From: Grimontia hollisae CIP 101886
GTDB taxonomy: Bacteria > Pseudomonadota > Gammaproteobacteria > Enterobacterales > Vibrionaceae
Direction: 5' to 3'
DNA: 24,000 nt
NCBI RefSeq assembly: GCF_000176515.1
Contig: NZ_ADAQ01000013.1
Span: 1,361-25,360, forward strand
This document shows positions 1 to 4,363 of the stretch, one piece after another. How positions within the stretch are numbered: position 1 is the stretch's first letter; every line of letters begins with the position of its first letter. The notes under the pieces are model-generated. The model was not told where the DNA came from. It ran no database searches and worked only from the letters and a program-made list of their open reading frames with translations. The translations under genes were made by a program, and so were the position numbers.

Positions 1-100
1 GCAGCTTGTTGCCCGCAGAATCGAGGATGCAGACATAAAGAATGCGCGCATGCAGATCGATGCCGCAGTAATAATCATGCTGTTGGTTATAGAATCTCAT
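1..100 (-). CDS. IS110-family transposase, first 33 codons only (gene runs off the left edge)
   Basis: Reverse-strand ATG at 98-100, preceded by GGAGAAG (rc of 105-111). Translation is MRFYNQQHDYYCGIDLHARILYVCILDSAGNKL, the YCGIDLH...VCILD N-terminal pattern typical of IS110-family DEDD transposases. Absent from the ORF track because it is truncated. Confidence 0.6.
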   Translation of the reverse strand, partial: MRFYNQQHDYYCGIDLHARILYVCILDSAGNKL

Positions 101-169: not shown

Positions 170-175
170 ATGAGT

Positions 176-296
176 ATCAAACTGTTTAAGAGGGATTCAC
201 AACGCTTGGCATTTTTGGTTTAATTCGGCTTAAGTGTTTACGGCACAATGGTTTAGGTTAGGTGGTGGCGTTGTTCACCACTTAACGCGGCTACAT
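176..296 (+). repeat. Integron attC site 1 (Vibrio-repeat class), proximal part up to the IS insertion point
   Basis: R''-like ATCAAAC at 176-182. The block 180-215 matches 2278-2313 at 33/36 nt (aactgtt[tc]aagagggattc[ag]caacgc[tg]tggcatttt). acaacgc (199-205) pairs with gcgttgt (268-274). The 3' arm ends ...cttaacgcggcta, then CAT. Confidence 0.65.
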
Positions 297-543
297 GGAT
301 TCCCCCGTTCGTCAAACATCCGCTAAACTTTTGAAGATAGGTTTTGGACTGCCGCTCTACATTCGGCCTTTCGCTGACTCACGTCATGGCCCTGATGACA
401 TTGCGCGGTTGCAGTGCCTCATTCGTTAGAAGGCATCAATGTGCCCGCCGCATTAACAGGCTCTCTGCAAATGGTCTTAACCTTTCCTCATCAGCTGCGT
501 CTGCAATGACCCGGTTGGTGTGTTTCCTTGCGCCGCCTCTTAC
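297..543 (-). ncRNA. Candidate bridge RNA / seekRNA of the IS (3' non-coding tail)
   Basis: No credible ORF. Hairpin 351-354/364-367 presents CTACATTCG (357-365), which equals left flank cta + CAT + right flank tcg of the empty site. Hairpin 415-419/431-435 presents (T)CATTCGTTAG (419-429), identical to 1630-1640. GTCATGG (383-389) and the rc of ATGACAT (394-400) match the end-to-end junction ...ccATGTCATGGatt. Strand is assumed to be that of the transposase. Confidence 0.5.
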
Positions 544-1566
544 TTAGGCGGCGTAGTCTTGATACTCAGTTTGGTTGTGTAACAGTGCCCAGATAATCCG
601 GGCGTTCTTGGCTGCTAAAGCGACAATGGCGCGGTTCATTCCTCGTCGTTCGAGGACGTTTCTCCCCCAGACGCTGAGCCTGTCCTGTTTTTCACCCAAG
701 TTCGTAATGACGGCTCTCGCGCCATGAACCAAGAGCGTGCGTAGGTATTTGTCACCGCGTTTACTTATCCGCCCAAGTCTGGGTTTACCGCCAGTTGAAT
801 ACTGTTTGGGCACCAGCCCAAGCCAGGCGGCAAAGTCTCTGCCGGAGTCGAACTGTTCGCCTTTACCAATGGTGGCAATAATTGCGGTTGCCGTTTGAGG
901 ACCAATGCCTCGAACCTTAAGAATACGCTGCGCATTGGGGCTGGCCTTGGTCACCATGTCAAAGCACAGTTCGGTGTCGTCGATGCGTTGGTTGAGTACT
1001 TGTAGATGCTCAAAACAATCACCGAGCACAGCACGAGCAATATCAGGCAGTCCGTTATCCGCGGCTTCGAGAATAAGCGGAACATCACGTTGAATCGCGT
1101 GGCGTCCGGTGGGGATAACTATCCCAAACTCAGCGAGCAGGGCACGAATGCGATTAATGAGCGCGGTGCGTTCTTGAACCCAATGTTCCCGCATTCGGTG
1201 GATGGAGAGAATCGCCTGTCGTTCAGGTGATTTAACAGGAACGAAGCGGGTGGCATGGCGCTGAACCGCTTCGCAGATAGCGATGGCGTCATTGAGGTCA
1301 TTCTTGCCTTTAGTACGGTAAGGGGCAACATATTTAGCGGCCATGATTCGGGCATCATGGCCTAACTTGATGAACTCTCTTGCCCAATAATGCGCCCCAG
1401 AGCACGCTTCGATGCCTATACGCATGGTTGACATATTTGCTAATGTAGTCAGCAATTTAGCGCGTGATACGGATTTGTGAAGAATGACCTTTCCTCGGTC
1501 ATCAACCGCGTGCAGGGAGAAGTGGTGTTTGGCGAGGTCAACGCCACAAAAGAATTGAGAAGACAT
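544..1566 (-). CDS. IS110-family (IS1111-type) transposase, 340 aa
   Basis: ORF-track 544..1593 trimmed to the ATG at 1564-1566, which has GGAGGT 6 nt upstream. N-terminus is MSSQFFCGVDLAKHHF...IGIEACSGAHYW (DEDD/RuvC-like domain). C-terminal part has ...RGIGPQTATAIIATIG...AAWLGLVPKQYSTGGKPRLGRISKRGDKYLR (Transposase_20-type helix-hairpin-helix module). Confidence 0.9.
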   Translation of the reverse strand: MSSQFFCGVDLAKHHFSLHAVDDRGKVILHKSVSRAKLLTTLANMSTMRIGIEACSGAHYWAREFIKLGHDARIMAAKYVAPYRTKGKNDLNDAIAICEAVQRHATRFVPVKSPERQAILSIHRMREHWVQERTALINRIRALLAEFGIVIPTGRHAIQRDVPLILEAADNGLPDIARAVLGDCFEHLQVLNQRIDDTELCFDMVTKASPNAQRILKVRGIGPQTATAIIATIGKGEQFDSGRDFAAWLGLVPKQYSTGGKPRLGRISKRGDKYLRTLLVHGARAVITNLGEKQDRLSVWGRNVLERRGMNRAIVALAAKNARIIWALLHNQTEYQDYAA

Positions 1567-1630
1567 GGTTACCTCCGGTATTTGATGCAACACCTAAGTG
1601 TGGCAAATCCTCGTGAGGGGGAATCCATGT

Positions 1631-1642
1631 CATTCGTTAGTT
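1631..1642 (+). repeat. attC-1 distal remainder: second CAT copy, tc, then R' core GTTAGTT
   Basis: cattcGTTAGTT lies immediately after the right IS inverted repeat. GTTAGTT (1636-1642) fits GTTRRRY and pairs with ATCAAAC (5/7, including AAC:GTT). The next cassette would start after G1636. Confidence 0.55.
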
Positions 1643-1657: not shown

Positions 1658-1936
1658 TCAATCCGCAGGGAATTTTTGTTTCTGGTGGAGTACACGCATA
1701 ACTCGGATGATATCGCCTTCGACCCAGTAAGAGACAATCATCGAAATCTCAGGAATAATGAGCAATCGTCCGCGGATGCCATCTCGTTGTACACCCATTA
1801 AAGGTTGTTCAAGCAAGTTTTCTACTTTGGCTTCAATGAGGTAGTCAGTCTTTTCTGCCGCATCAGGGTTGAAGTCATAGAGAAACTCGAAGATCTTTTC
1901 ACGATCATTAAGTGACTCTTCTTCCCATAAAATCAT
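1658..1936 (-). CDS. RelE/ParE-superfamily type II toxin, 92 aa
   Basis: Small basic protein ending ...IVSYWVEGDIIRVMRVLHQKQKF, typical of the RelE/ParE fold. Its start overlaps the upstream antitoxin stop (ATGA, 1933-1936). Located in an integron cassette. Confidence 0.8.
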   Translation of the reverse strand: MILWEEESLNDREKIFEFLYDFNPDAAEKTDYLIEAKVENLLEQPLMGVQRDGIRGRLLIIPEISMIVSYWVEGDIIRVMRVLHQKQKFPAD

Positions 1937-2217
1937 TGCTTACCTCGATTACGGATTCTGGCTTTGCGCTCTTCCATTCGAGATTTAGCAGTTTGGTGCT
2001 CAACGAAAACGGATTTTCCTGAGTCAAACTTCTCAAATGCTAGGTTTACTTGTTCAGTTAGCCATGCATCGTGAGATAATGTTTTTCTTTGTTGTTCAGC
2101 GAGTTGCTCAGTAAGTTCACGGCATGCGTCACTCAGAGTGCGACCTTGGCTCTCAGCCATTTGTTGAGCTAGGCGTTTTGTTTCTTCATCAACACGAAAT
2201 TGAATTCTAGTGTCCAT
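1933..2217 (-). CDS. RelB/DinJ-family antitoxin, 94 aa
   Basis: N-terminus MDTRIQFRVDEETKRLAQQMAESQGRTLSDACRE is the ribbon-helix-helix pattern of RelB/DinJ antitoxins. AAGGA RBS. 4-nt overlap with the toxin gene. Confidence 0.8.
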   Translation of the reverse strand: MDTRIQFRVDEETKRLAQQMAESQGRTLSDACRELTEQLAEQQRKTLSHDAWLTEQVNLAFEKFDSGKSVFVEHQTAKSRMEERKARIRNRGKQ

Positions 2218-2275: not shown

Positions 2276-2396
2276 CTAACTGTTCAAGAGGGATTCGCAA
2301 CGCGTGGCATTTTCATTATGCGTTGGTTTTAGTGTTTAAGGTGGTATGCGGCGGCTTCGGTATTGCGTTGCTCACCTTTACAGGGCTAGGTTTTTA
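2274..2396 (+). repeat. Integron attC site 2 (same repeat family as attC-1), 123 bp
   Basis: R''-like AACTAAC at 2274-2280. Conserved 5' block 2278-2313. gcaacgc (2298-2304) pairs with gcgttgc (2365-2371). The 3' arm ...ctcacctttacagggctag is followed by R' GTTTTTA at 2390-2396. Confidence 0.7.
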
Positions 2397-2415
2397 GGGA
2401 GAGGAGGGAACCCTT

Positions 2416-2981: not shown

Positions 2982-3150
2982 GGCAAACACATATAGAAGG
3001 TCTCTTACTGCGGTCTCACCGCTGCCTGCCAATCGAGTGGCAGGGCCATTAGACATTATTCGGTTAACCCAAGCTGGCGTGGTATGCGGAAACTCAGGCA
3101 TTGCGTGCCTCACACCTCAACGCGACTATGCGTCGAATATTGGGTTAACA
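2982..3150 (+). repeat. Diverged attC site 3 (tentative boundaries)
   Basis: The 3' arm 3103-3128 (gcgtgcctcacacctcaacgcgacta) matches the attC-1 3' arm 268-293 at 19/26 ungapped. A weak 5' arm at 2982-3011 matches 16/30, including GGCAAAC vs ATCAAAC and agaagg vs agaggg. Central hairpin cctgcc/ggcagg at 3025-3030/3039-3044. The first GTT after the arm is GTTAACA at 3144-3150. Confidence 0.4.
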
Positions 3151-3425
3151 TCCATGCTCTTATGAAGAATTCGGATTACCCTGATTTGTTGGCGGCCTGT
3201 TTGCAGATAAAAGATGACGTGACTACCTTGGGAAAATTTTCTGTATCCCTCTCGGATTTCATCGCATGATTTACCGATATCGGGATTTTCCGCTAAAAGC
3301 CAAAATGAGTCATCGAATTGCTTTAAATAAACATTTCGCTGCTCTTTTCCCCAGCGGCGTTGAGTGAATAAAGCAATATCCCGTAAATCGGTTTTAGCGG
3401 CGACAGTCAGATTAAATAGTTTCAT
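3126..3425 (-). CDS. parE: ParE toxin (type II TA, gyrase-poison family), 99 aa
   Basis: MKLFNLTVAAKTDLRDIALFTQRRWGKEQRNVYLKQFDDSFWLLAENPDIGKSCDEIREGYRKF...IRVIRILHKSMDV matches the ParE proteins I recall from Vibrio superintegron cassettes. ATGA overlap with parD (3422-3425). Confidence 0.9.
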   Translation of the reverse strand: MKLFNLTVAAKTDLRDIALFTQRRWGKEQRNVYLKQFDDSFWLLAENPDIGKSCDEIREGYRKFSQGSHVIFYLQTGRQQIRVIRILHKSMDVNPIFDA

Positions 3426-3667
3426 CGACGGTTTTCTTCACTATCGAGTTCATTGACGAAGCTATCAATGTCATAATCAGCGTCATCACTTTGCTCTCCT
3501 TCAACAAGTAATTGACGGAGTGACTGTAGTTTGGTTTCTTGGTTTTCGAGTAAACGTAGCGCAGAACGAATGACTTCACTTGCTGAGCCGTAACGGCCAC
3601 TTTGTATTTGGCTTGTAATAAAGCTATCGAAGTGTTCACCAAGAGTGATACTTGTGTTTTTAGCCAT
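3422..3667 (-). CDS. parD: ParD antitoxin (RHH, ParD/CC2985 family), 81 aa
   Basis: MAKNTSITLGEHFDSFITSQIQSGRYGSASEVIRSALRLLENQETKLQSL is the canonical ParD N-terminal RHH plus helix. Acidic C-terminal tail. Directly upstream of and overlapping parE. Confidence 0.9.
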   Translation of the reverse strand: MAKNTSITLGEHFDSFITSQIQSGRYGSASEVIRSALRLLENQETKLQSLRQLLVEGEQSDDADYDIDSFVNELDSEENRR

Positions 3668-3823: not shown

Positions 3824-4363
3824 ATGTTATCACGGAAGAATACGGGGCTTGTTGTCGTGGATGTTCAGGGCAAGCTTGCCCGCTTAGTCCATGACAGTGA
3901 ACGAGTCATTGCCAACTGTGAAACGCTAGTGAAAGGAGCAAGGGCGCTCGGATTGCCGATTATCCTGCTTGAACAAAATCCCGACAAATTAGGTTGCACA
4001 GTTGATGAGCTTAAGGCTCACCTTGATGGTGTCGATCCTATATCCAAATTCACTTTTAATGCCTGTGAAGCACCGGAATTTCTTGAAGCCGTTAAGGCGA
4101 TGAAAGCAGATACCTGGTTAATCTGTGGTATTGAGGCGCATATCTGTGTGTATCAAACAGCAAGAGGCTTGGTGGATGCCGGTTTTAATGTTGAGCTTGT
4201 CAGTGAGTGTGTTTCTTCACGTACATTGTCCAATGTGCAGCTTGGTATAAATCGTTCGAAAGACAATGGTGTAACGATCACGGGGTTGGAAATGTGCCTT
4301 TATGAACTGGTGCAGGACTGCCGTCATCCTGTGTTTAAACAGATACTCAGCCTCGTTCGCTAG
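3824..4363 (+). CDS. Isochorismatase-family cysteine hydrolase, 179 aa
   Basis: GLVVVDVQ near the N-terminus and ...WLICGIEAHICVYQTA (catalytic Cys context) are isochorismatase/nicotinamidase-fold hallmarks. RBS GGAGGGGG precedes the ATG. Confidence 0.85.
   Translation: MLSRKNTGLVVVDVQGKLARLVHDSERVIANCETLVKGARALGLPIILLEQNPDKLGCTVDELKAHLDGVDPISKFTFNACEAPEFLEAVKAMKADTWLICGIEAHICVYQTARGLVDAGFNVELVSECVSSRTLSNVQLGINRSKDNGVTITGLEMCLYELVQDCRHPVFKQILSLVR

What the first reader, a model, noticed from the sequence alone, without database searches (positions are those of the whole stretch)
297..543. The IS non-coding tail carries loop sequences identical to its own attC insertion site: candidate attC-programmed bridge/seek RNA
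**Seen in sequence**
- Removing the IS leaves the empty site ...gcggcta-CAT-tcgttagtt...
- The 247-nt ORF-less region between the transposase stop (544) and the left IS end contains CTACATTCG (357-365). This spans left flank + CAT + right flank of the empty site. It sits mainly in the loop of the hairpin gccg/cggc (351-354/364-367).
- The same region contains TCATTCGTTAG (419-429), identical to 1630-1640 (CAT + right flank, including the attC R' core start GTTAG). It forms the loop of the hairpin tgcct/aggca (415-419/431-435).
- Between these two, GTCATGG (383-389) and the rc of ATGACAT (394-400) match the circle junction ...ccATGTCATGGatt formed by joining the two IS ends.
- By naive 4^-k counting, a 10-nt exact match to a specified ~20-nt site within 250 nt is expected well under 1% of the time. 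Here it co-occurs with a 9-nt match.
- None of the other attC-like sites in the window contains CATTCGTTAG, and none of them is occupied.

**Established knowledge**
- IS110/IS1111 recombinases use an element-encoded structured RNA whose loops base-pair with both target and donor DNA.
- In the IS1111 subgroup this RNA lies downstream of the transposase gene.
- An IS1111-attC subgroup that targets integron attC sites has been described.

**Inference**
- This is such an RNA, with a guide specific for one attC variant of this array.
- That would make it a natural RNA-guided system that edits an integron.
Basis: partly seen in the sequence, partly recalled or inferred. Interest (0 to 1): 0.85.

Follow-up and report, generated by a model that had tools for sequence, protein, structure and literature searches.

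The report
Guide RNA of an integron-targeting IS
The non-coding tail of this insertion sequence encodes the guide RNA (seekRNA or bridge RNA) that IS1111-type elements use to choose where they insert, here aimed at an integron attC site; this mechanism was published in 2024, so the copy is a new member of a known kind, not a new system.

Summary
The 11-mer occurs only at 419-429 and 1630-1640, against 0.01 expected by chance.

The element is an IS1111-family IS. It has a DEDD transposase, 12-14 bp subterminal inverted repeats and a 3' non-coding region. That region carries a conserved structured RNA. A covariance model built from relatives also finds the experimentally proven ISKpn4 seekRNA.

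Four unpaired segments covary with each relative's own flanks or ends (permutation p<=1e-4 each):
- LTG, 424-429
- RDG, 395-399
- LDG, 357-362

The general interpretation is therefore right, but several details are probably wrong:
- **IS ends.** The IS most likely spans 292-1635, with 7-nt and 3-nt terminal extensions.
- **Empty site.** It is then an ordinary attC end, CTTAACGCGGC|GTTAGTT, not ...GGCTA-CAT-TCGTTAG.
- **GTCATGG.** This lies in a variable hairpin and is probably chance.
- **CTACATTCG.** This is a donor-end guide, not a target guide.

RNA-guided attC targeting by IS1111 elements (ISKpn4, ISPst6, ISPa25) was shown in 2024. What is new is modest. This lineage is only 37% identical to ISKpn4 and inserts at the other (R') end of the attC.

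The parts
292..1635 (-). Whole IS1111-family insertion sequence (1344 bp). In IS sense it reads 7-nt left extension GAATGAC, IRL ATGGATTCCCCC ... IRR GGGGGAATCCAT, 3-nt right extension GTA. The boundaries are ambiguous by 1 nt, because G is shared by IS position 1 and the flank.
   Evidence: Inverted repeats. The 7/3 extension rule (PMC11187229). ISKpn4 junctions. Unoccupied neighbouring attCs read TAAC|GCC. A junction promoter forms only with abutted 7/3 ends.
544..1566 (-). DEDD transposase gene, 340 aa from the ATG at 1566.
   Evidence: PF01548 and PF02371. 99% identical to a Grimontia hollisae IS110-family transposase. 37% to ISKpn4, 43% to ISPa25, 47% to ISKpn2.
330..465 (-). Core of the seekRNA/bridge-RNA gene, as matched by covariance model R1. 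The likely longer precursor covers about 292-543.
   Evidence: R1 scores 114 bits here and gives the only hit in the window. Conserved fold: 92% of cells paired against 28-48% in slid controls.
447..456 (-). RTG (right target guide, the 'T' match). RNA UUAAUGCGGC is complementary to the IS-sense top strand of the right flank GCCGCGTTAA (window 282-291), with one G.U pair.
   Evidence: Covaries with flanks in 12 elements, p~5e-5. Aligns with ISKpn4 UAACAAU.
424..429 (-). LTG (left target guide, the 'B' match). RNA CUAAC+G has the same sense as the left flank CTAAC (the complement of the attC R' core GTTAG) plus the shared G. The next 5 nt (419-423, AAUGA) copy the IS left extension.
   Evidence: The nucleotide after CUAACGAAU varies (G, C or A) in close relatives.
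395..399 (-). RDG (right donor guide). RNA GUCAU is complementary to nt 3-7 (ATGAC) of the IS left extension. In this copy the match extends to 395-401.
   Evidence: Covaries with the extension: GAC/GUC, GAT/AUC, GAA/UUC, GGA/UCC, GGT/ACC. ISKpn4 has UACAG opposite CTGTA.
357..362 (-). LDG (left donor guide). RNA AU-GUA-G has the same sense as the last 2 nt of IRR, the 3-nt right extension and the shared nucleotide. The preceding CCGAAU (363-368) is a conserved motif, of which GGCC (365-368) pairs in helix P5.
   Evidence: 6/6 match in 12 of 12 elements with different extensions. ISKpn4 has AU-AUG-CGA.
432..445 (-). Helix P4 (GGCA 442-445 pairs with UGCC 432-435). This small hairpin separates RTG from LTG.
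   Evidence: All 4 pairs have compensatory changes; 98.9% of cells paired.
417..460 (-). Helix P3 (CCU 458-460 pairs with AGG 417-419), which closes the target-binding internal loop. Helix P2 (465-469 with 410-414) lies outside it.
   Evidence: P2 has 5 covarying pairs. P3 is nearly invariant.
365..391 (-). Helix P5 (GGCC 388-391 pairs with GGCC 365-368).
175..291 (+). Body of the interrupted attC: R'' ATCAAAC at 175-181 through to the spacer GCGGC at 287-291.
   Evidence: Repeat family shared with attC 2268-2400. Arm comparison with unoccupied attCs. Array direction given by intI next to the same locus in another strain.
1636..1642 (+). R' core GTTAGTT of the interrupted attC, now separated from the rest of the site by the IS.

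Best explanation
Window 292-1635 is an intact IS1111-family insertion sequence, closest to copies in Grimontia hollisae. It sits antisense to the cassette array, exactly between the spacer and the R' core of an integron attC site (CTTAACGCGGC|GTTAGTT).

Its 252-nt tail downstream of the transposase gene encodes the element's guide RNA (seekRNA or bridge RNA). The RNA has two modules, each built as 'antisense right guide, small hairpin, sense left guide'.

Target module:
- RTG (UUAAUGCGGC) pairs with one strand of the attC just right of the insertion point.
- LTG (CUAAC-G) pairs with the other strand just left of it.

Donor module:
- RDG (GUCAU) pairs with the IS left extension.
- LDG (AUGUA-G) pairs with the IS right end.

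Both left guides end on a single nucleotide that target and donor share.

Shown here: the guide and flank complementarity, its covariation across relatives, the conserved fold, and homology to the ISKpn4 seekRNA.

Inferred by analogy with ISKpn4, ISEc11 and IS621:
- The RNA binds the DEDD transposase.
- It aligns the circularised IS with the attC for strand exchange.
- The extra bases after the shared nucleotide (AAUGA in LTG) act like 'handshake' bases that match the recombinant junction.
- The insertion splits R' from the rest of the attC and so blocks cassette excision there.
For: - Transposase domains PF01548 and PF02371.
- Subterminal inverted repeats of 12-14 bp.
- About 20 relatives at 50-91% amino-acid identity sit at the same site in the same orientation.
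- Relatives at other sites carry different guide strings that match their own flanks.
- Cognate against non-cognate permutation gives p<=1e-4 for each of RTG, LTG, LDG and RDG.
- Consensus fold: 13 pairs with compensatory changes, 92% of cells paired against 28-48% in slid controls, and the guides lie in unpaired stretches.
- Model R1 finds the 3' tail of about 58 held-out relatives. It also finds the ISKpn4 seekRNA region with guide positions aligned (18.6 bits, E 2.5e-4 to 2.7e-3).
- ISKpn4 junctions show the same 7/3 extension layout, and its published uninterrupted target is CGGCTTGAA*CGAATTGTTAG (Table 1 of PMC13604230).
- Unoccupied attCs beside occupied ones read yTAAC|GCCnnnTTAAG.
- Abutted ends create TTGACG-16-TAGAAT across the junction. 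In relatives they give TATAAT or GATAAT.
- The shared nucleotide is found in 12 of 12 elements.
- seekRNA function for attC-targeting IS1111 elements is established (PMC11187229), as is the bridge-RNA logic (PMC11208160, PMC11208158).
Against: - No uninterrupted copy of this particular attC and no circle junction could be retrieved. The IS ends rest on family rule, neighbours and the promoter argument.
- The whole 247-nt tail does not fold better than shuffles (z -0.22).
- No Rfam family matches.
- The match to ISKpn4 is weak.
- RNAalifold also proposes a helix, GAUGA/UCAUC, that would sequester part of RDG. It is nearly invariant, so it is neither supported nor refuted.
- No expression data exist.
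- The insertion is fixed at this locus in all seven G. hollisae loci shown, several with a truncated transposase. Current activity is therefore unproven.
Confidence: 0.8

Rival explanations
1. This rival keeps the same RNA-guided mechanism but uses the reader's boundaries. The IS would be 297-1631 plus a duplicated AT (or CAT) core. The empty site would be an unusual attC...GCGGCTAC-AT-TCGTTAG. CGAAUGUAG and CUAACGAAU would both be target guides.
For: - AT is present at both junctions.
- CGAAUGUAG is contiguous in the RNA and equals the predicted empty site.
- An IS-free attC in G. celer is preceded by CATGTA (L001 4717-4727).
- IS621-type recombination uses a shared dinucleotide core (PMC11208160).
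Against: - The published family rule is 7-nt and 3-nt extensions, verified against uninterrupted targets (PMC11187229).
- The homologous ISKpn4 has no shared dinucleotide at these positions. Its extensions are absent from the known uninterrupted attC (PMC13604230).
- Seven unoccupied neighbouring attCs lack GAATGTA.
- AATG stays constant in elements whose targets are entirely different.
- The CCGRAU part of CGAAUGUAG is a conserved motif whatever the flank.
- Only abutted 7/3 ends build a junction promoter.
- No natural TAACGAATGTAGCC attC turned up.
Confidence: 0.13
2. The matches would be DNA-level features, such as internal copies of the IS ends serving as transposase-binding sites, or plain chance, with no RNA guide involved.
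For: - Two of the four segments copy the IS's own ends.
- The overall fold energy is not better than shuffles.
- There is no Rfam hit.
Against: - RTG and LTG match the flank rather than the IS, and they covary with it across relatives.
- Compensatory base-pair changes indicate selection on a single-stranded fold.
- The region is positionally homologous to an RNA that co-purifies with its transposase and is required for transposition (PMC11187229).
- The chance expectation for the 11-mer is 0.01.
Confidence: 0.03
3. The guide RNA is genuine in origin, but this copy would be an immobile relic. It is fixed in the species and now acts only as a substrate for homologous recombination that reshuffles the array.
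For: - The same left junction is present in all seven G. hollisae loci shown.
- Several of them carry a transposase truncated to 299 or 309 aa.
- The attC half to the right of the IS differs between strains, which suggests recombination between IS copies.
Against: - In this window the transposase is full length (340 aa).
- All four guides, the inverted repeats and the junction-promoter parts are intact.
Confidence: 0.3

Closest known systems
ISKpn4 / ISPst6 / ISPa21 (the IS1111-attC subgroup) and their seekRNA (Siddiquee et al. 2024, PMC11187229; Tetu & Holmes 2008; Post & Hall 2009)
   Same: - DEDD transposase and homologous subterminal repeats (ATGGACTC...).
- A 3' non-coding region encoding a guide RNA with the same module order: T match, hairpin, B match, donor guide, hairpin, donor guide.
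- An attC target.
- Insertion antisense to the cassette array.
- Model R1 aligns the two RNAs.
   Different: - The transposase is only 37% identical, so this element lies outside that monophyletic subgroup.
- ISKpn4 inserts in the R''-L'' arm near the 5' end of the attC (TTGAA*CGAATTGTTAG). This element inserts in the other arm, at the spacer|R' boundary (GCGGC|GTTAG).
- The extensions differ: GAATGAC/GTA here against GGCTGTA/ATG.
- The hosts are marine Gammaproteobacteria with chromosomal integrons rather than clinical class 1 integrons.
ISPa25 (an attC-targeting IS with a diverged transposase and a predicted seekRNA)
   Same: It shows that attC-directed guides occur with distantly related IS1111 transposases. 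It is 43% identical to this transposase.
   Different: It targets the same site as ISKpn4 (GACCTTGAG*CGACTTGTTAG), not the R' boundary.
IS621 bridge RNA (Durrant et al. 2024; Hiraizumi et al. 2024)
   Same: - Two binding modules.
- Left guides pair with the bottom strand and include the shared core.
- Right guides pair with the top strand.
- Bases beyond the core match the non-cognate partner, as handshake bases do.
   Different: - The RNA lies 3' of the gene rather than 5'.
- The order within each module is right guide then left guide.
- The shared core appears to be 1 nt rather than 2.
- The subterminal repeats are long.
- The donor guides are short (5-6 nt).
Group IIC-attC introns
   Same: They are mobile elements that recognise attC sites by RNA-DNA pairing and insert antisense to the array.
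   Different: They are retroelements (ribozyme plus reverse transcriptase), not a DEDD recombinase with a guide RNA.

Membership tests
IS1111 family (within ISfinder 'IS110') | DEDD transposase with an N-terminal RuvC-like domain and a C-terminal Transposase_20 domain, 330-350 aa | tested here: met
   PF01548 (E 1e-17) and PF02371 (E 3e-25); 340 aa.
IS1111 family (within ISfinder 'IS110') | Subterminal inverted repeats of about 11-13 bp | tested here: met
   ATGGATTCCCCC / GGGGGAATCCAT, 12 bp (14 bp with ACAT). Conserved as ATGGAYTCCC in relatives.
IS1111 family (within ISfinder 'IS110') | Long non-coding region downstream of tnp | tested here: met
   252 nt between the stop at 544 and the IS end at 292, against about 70 nt upstream of tnp.
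IS1111 family (within ISfinder 'IS110') | Terminal extensions of 7 nt (left) and 3 nt (right) beyond the repeats, with ends abutted in a circle that creates a promoter | tested here: inconclusive
   The evidence is indirect. Neighbouring empty attCs lack the 7 extra nt. ISKpn4 has the same layout. Abutted ends give TTGACG-16-TAGAAT. No circle junction or isogenic empty site is available.
IS1111 family (within ISfinder 'IS110') | Insertion at one specific target in one orientation | tested here: met
   About 20 independent copies at yTAAC|GCC in the same orientation.
seekRNA / bridge RNA | Segments complementary to both strands of the target, with the top-strand match 5' of the bottom-strand match in IS1111 elements | tested here: met
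   RTG (447-456) lies 5' of LTG (424-429) in the RNA.
seekRNA / bridge RNA | Guide segments covary with target and donor across orthologues | tested here: met
   12 elements with distinct flanks; permutation p<=1e-4 for each of the four guides.
seekRNA / bridge RNA | Conserved secondary structure with the guides in unpaired loops | tested here: met
   Helices P2, P4 and P5 have compensatory changes, and the guides lie between helices.
seekRNA / bridge RNA | Homology to an experimentally validated guide RNA | tested here: met
   Model R1 hits ISKpn4 at L201 1832-1964 over its full length, 18.6 bits, E 2.5e-4 to 2.7e-3 (E-values are rough). Guide positions align.
seekRNA / bridge RNA | The RNA is expressed, binds the transposase and is required for transposition | not testable with these tools
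   No expression or biochemical data. The promoter and terminator scan was uninformative.
IS1111-attC subgroup (Tetu & Holmes 2008) | The transposase belongs to the monophyletic ISPst6/ISPa21/ISKpn4 clade, whose members are about 75-90% identical to each other | tested here: not met
   37% identity to ISKpn4. Subgroup identities come from the source data of PMC11187229.
IS1111-attC subgroup (Tetu & Holmes 2008) | [quoted passage not shown] | tested here: not met
   Antisense: yes. Position: at the 3' (R') end. Array direction is fixed by intI in L206 and by the + strand ORFs. The subgroup description is in PMC3001079.
Rfam families | A match to any curated RNA family | tested here: not met
   0 hits at gathering threshold on the window, and 0 hits at E<=10 on 250-620.

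The most novel reading that the evidence does not exclude
This would be a second, independently evolved lineage of attC-seeking IS1111 elements. It is widespread in marine Gammaproteobacteria and inserts one nucleotide from the integrase cleavage point at the R' box. Its right-target guide has been naturally reprogrammed to the attC family of each host: UUAAUGCGGC for GCCGCRTTAA in Grimontia and Vibrio, and UUUAAUUGGG for CCCAATTAAG in L021. It would then be a natural RNA-programmable lock and rearranger of sedentary chromosomal integrons. It would also be a ready-made guide set for editing such arrays.
Probability: 0.5. Interest if true: 0.45.

Novelty: new member of a known kind. Interest (0 to 1): 0.3.

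Why it matters
This finding confirms, from sequence alone, that the published seekRNA/bridge-RNA logic extends to an unnamed IS1111 clade living in the chromosomal integrons of Vibrionaceae and related marine bacteria.

It gives a worked natural example with four guide segments, a one-nucleotide shared core and a junction promoter built from the terminal extensions.

It also shows that attC sites are hit at a second position, right beside the integrase cleavage site. Insertion there should freeze the affected cassette boundary. Strain comparisons suggest it also seeds array rearrangements.

The finding does not reveal a new mechanism.

Tried and rejected
- **Rfam**. No family matched, so published bridge-RNA models could not be applied. 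I built model R1 instead.
- **Folding the whole tail**. The z-score was -0.22, which is uninformative.
Rejected, because pairing is not conserved.
- **A dinucleotide AT core with the empty site CTAACGA-AT-GTAGCC.** I held this view through. I then rejected it in favour of 7/3 extensions.
- **Exact-protein look-up of the transposase**. It is not on record.
- **Look-up of the neighbouring ParE**. All seven G. hollisae loci shown carry the IS, so no empty site was obtained.
- **Minimum-free-energy folding of reconstructed attCs**. R'/R'' pairing was recovered in only about 6 of 14, so this is noisy.
- **Promoter and terminator scan of the linear IS**. Nothing above the chance level.
- **Tetu & Holmes 2008** is not in the library.
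- **Pfam on the 33-aa fragment at 2-100** gave no hit.

Full report
**Observation**

ATGACAT is at 395-401, one base off the reported position. The 11-mer TCATTCGTTAG occurs only at 419-429 and 1630-1640. Shuffles give 0.01 expected matches, and none of 100 reaches two. The ORF on the minus strand (544-1566, 340 aa) carries the two domains of IS110/IS1111 transposases. It is 99% identical to a Grimontia hollisae protein. The element ends in inverted repeats ATGGATTCCCCC / GGGGGAATCCAT.

**What is already known**

Siddiquee et al. 2024 (PMC11187229) worked on IS1111 elements, including the attC-targeting ISKpn4 and ISPst6.
- They make a 70-100 nt seekRNA from the region downstream of tnp.
- The RNA co-purifies with the transposase and is essential for movement.
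- It carries a top-strand match 5' of a bottom-strand match to the target.
- ISPa25 was predicted to do the same.

Durrant et al. 2024 (PMC11208160) and Hiraizumi et al. 2024 (PMC11208158) give the bridge-RNA logic for IS621.
- Left guides pair with the bottom strand and include the core.
- Right guides pair with the top strand.
- Handshake bases pair with the non-cognate DNA after strand exchange.

The open question is whether this copy fits it and how.

**Relatives**

An alignment-based scan of one genome per species returned 80 loci. About 20 elements, 50-91% identical in protein, lie at the same sequence in the same orientation: yTAAC-GAATGAY-ATGGAYTCCC ... GGGARTCCAT-GTA-GCC. They come from Grimontia, Salinivibrio, Vibrio, Photobacterium, Aliiglaciecola, Marinobacter, Shewanella, Pseudoalteromonas and others. 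A dozen more distant elements have the same kind of ends but different flanks.

**Guide segments**

At fixed positions of the tail, four short stretches change together with each element's own flanks or ends. In this window, written in RNA sense, they are:
- UUAAUGCGGC (447-456), complementary to the right flank GCCGCGTTAA with one G.U pair.
- CUAAC-G (424-429), the same sense as the left flank.
- GUCAU (395-399), complementary to ATGAC of the IS left end.
- AU-GUA-G (357-362), the same sense as the IS right end.

I scored cognate against non-cognate pairs in 12 elements with distinct flanks. Permutation gives p of about 5e-5 to 1e-4 for each segment.

**Fold**

A 22-sequence alignment gives a consensus with 13 pairs that show compensatory changes. 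Of all cells, 92% are paired, against 28-48% when partners are slid. The layout, with coordinates, is:
- P2 (465-469/410-414) and P3 (458-460/417-419) enclose RTG, hairpin P4 (442-445/432-435) and LTG.
- RDG follows, then hairpin P5 (388-391/365-368), then LDG.

The guides lie in unpaired stretches, as the model requires. GTCATGG lies inside the variable P5 hairpin and is absent from relatives with identical ends. Folding the whole tail alone is uninformative (z -0.22).

**Homology to a proven seekRNA**

Rfam has no matching family. A covariance model built from the core (R1) gave these results:
- It finds a single site in the window (330-465, minus strand, 114 bits).
- It finds the 3' tail of about 58 relatives that were not in its seed.
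- It finds the ISKpn4 tail in a Salmonella plasmid (L201 1832-1964, 18.6 bits, E 2.5e-4 to 2.7e-3).
- The alignment places ISKpn4's UAACAAU, UUGAACG, UACAG and AUAUGCGA at the RTG, LTG, RDG and LDG positions.

**Where the IS ends**

Five observations argue against that reading:
1. The family rule is 7-nt left and 3-nt right extensions beyond the repeats, verified on uninterrupted targets.
2. ISKpn4 shows exactly this layout: TTGAA|GGCTGTA-ATGGACTC ... GAGTCCAT-ATG|TGAATTGTTAG. Its uninterrupted target is CGGCTTGAA*CGAATTGTTAG.
3. Unoccupied attCs next to occupied ones read yTAAC|GCCnnnTTAAG, without GAATGTA.
4. AATG stays constant in elements with unrelated targets.
5. Only abutted 7/3 ends create a junction promoter. 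Here it is TTGACG-16-TAGAAT, and relatives have TATAAT or GATAAT. Such a promoter is a known IS1111 feature.

I therefore place the IS at 292-1635 and the target at CTTAACGCGGC|GTTAGTT, with about 0.8 confidence. Position 1 of the left extension equals position 1 of the right flank in 12 of 12 elements, and both left guides end on it. This looks like a one-nucleotide core, which is an inference. It matches the present junction, much as handshake bases would. CTACATTCG is a donor guide preceded by the conserved CCGRAU motif.

**Which attC end**

In another G. hollisae assembly an integron-integrase-like gene lies beyond the IS on the side that is left of the window. The ORFs at 2416-2850 and 3824-4363 are on the + strand. 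The array therefore runs left to right on the + strand. The IS sits antisense, between the spacer and the R' core at the 3' end of the attC. The published IS1111-attC subgroup inserts near the 5' end. Its transposases form a tight clade, to which this protein is only 37% identical. This is a separate attC-seeking lineage with a different insertion point.

**Not specific to this array**

The other attC-like sites in the window match the guides poorly. However, the same target is used across many genera. In six G. hollisae assemblies the attC half to the right of the IS differs while the left junction is identical. That points to recombination between IS copies. Several strains have a truncated transposase. 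The copy in this window is intact.

**Verdict**

This is a real and well-supported guide RNA of a known kind.

Noticed in passing
window 2-100 (minus strand), up to about 170: This is the 5' end of a second DEDD/IS110-type transposase gene (MRFYNQQHDYYCGIDLH...). It abuts the R'' end of the same attC. Other G. hollisae strains carry a 315-347 aa PF01548/PF02371 gene there, and one strain has an integron-integrase-like gene instead. Pfam did not score the 33-aa fragment.
   Followed up: partly
L202-L208 (G. hollisae assemblies), right junction of the IS: The left junction is identical in all strains, but the attC half to the right of the IS comes in five further variants. This suggests array rearrangement by recombination between IS copies.
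   Followed up: partly
L202, L203, L204, L206, L207: In these strains the transposase of the same insertion is truncated to 299 or 309 aa. It is 340 aa here and in L205.
   Followed up: no
L205 about 4142-4185: Thirteen nucleotides into the attC to the right of this IS, another IS1111-like inverted repeat (ATGGTCTCCCCC) begins, followed by a 338-aa DEDD transposase gene. A second, different element is nested in the same attC.
   Followed up: no
L001 4717-4727: An IS-free attC in Grimontia celer is preceded by CATGTA, which is the last 6 nt of the IS. It may be a relic of a lost copy.
   Followed up: partly
window 2385-2400 (attC 2268-2400): This unoccupied attC has three extra bases (CTA in IS sense) between AAC and GCC. 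That is the position where the IS carries GTA. Their origin is unknown.
   Followed up: no
L001 3640-3665: The G. celer copy (91% protein identity) has a 20-nt insertion inside the left target guide (CTAACG-CCAATTTGTTTAATAAAAAG-GGG). Its guide is probably disabled.
   Followed up: no
all elements: The terminal extensions (..xTA and xAAT..) together form the -10 hexamer of the circle-junction promoter. This explains why they stay constant while targets vary.
   Followed up: yes
L068 3750-3765; L062 right flank: Some relatives with 'other' targets have flanks containing GTTAGG (TCTAGTTAGGC, TGTTAGGT). They may also be attC-associated, at yet another position.
   Followed up: no
window 1658-2217, 3126-3667, 3824-4363: The cassette content includes a ParE-like toxin with a RelB-like antitoxin, a ParD/ParE pair (both pairs on the minus strand), and an isochorismatase-family gene.
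   Followed up: yes
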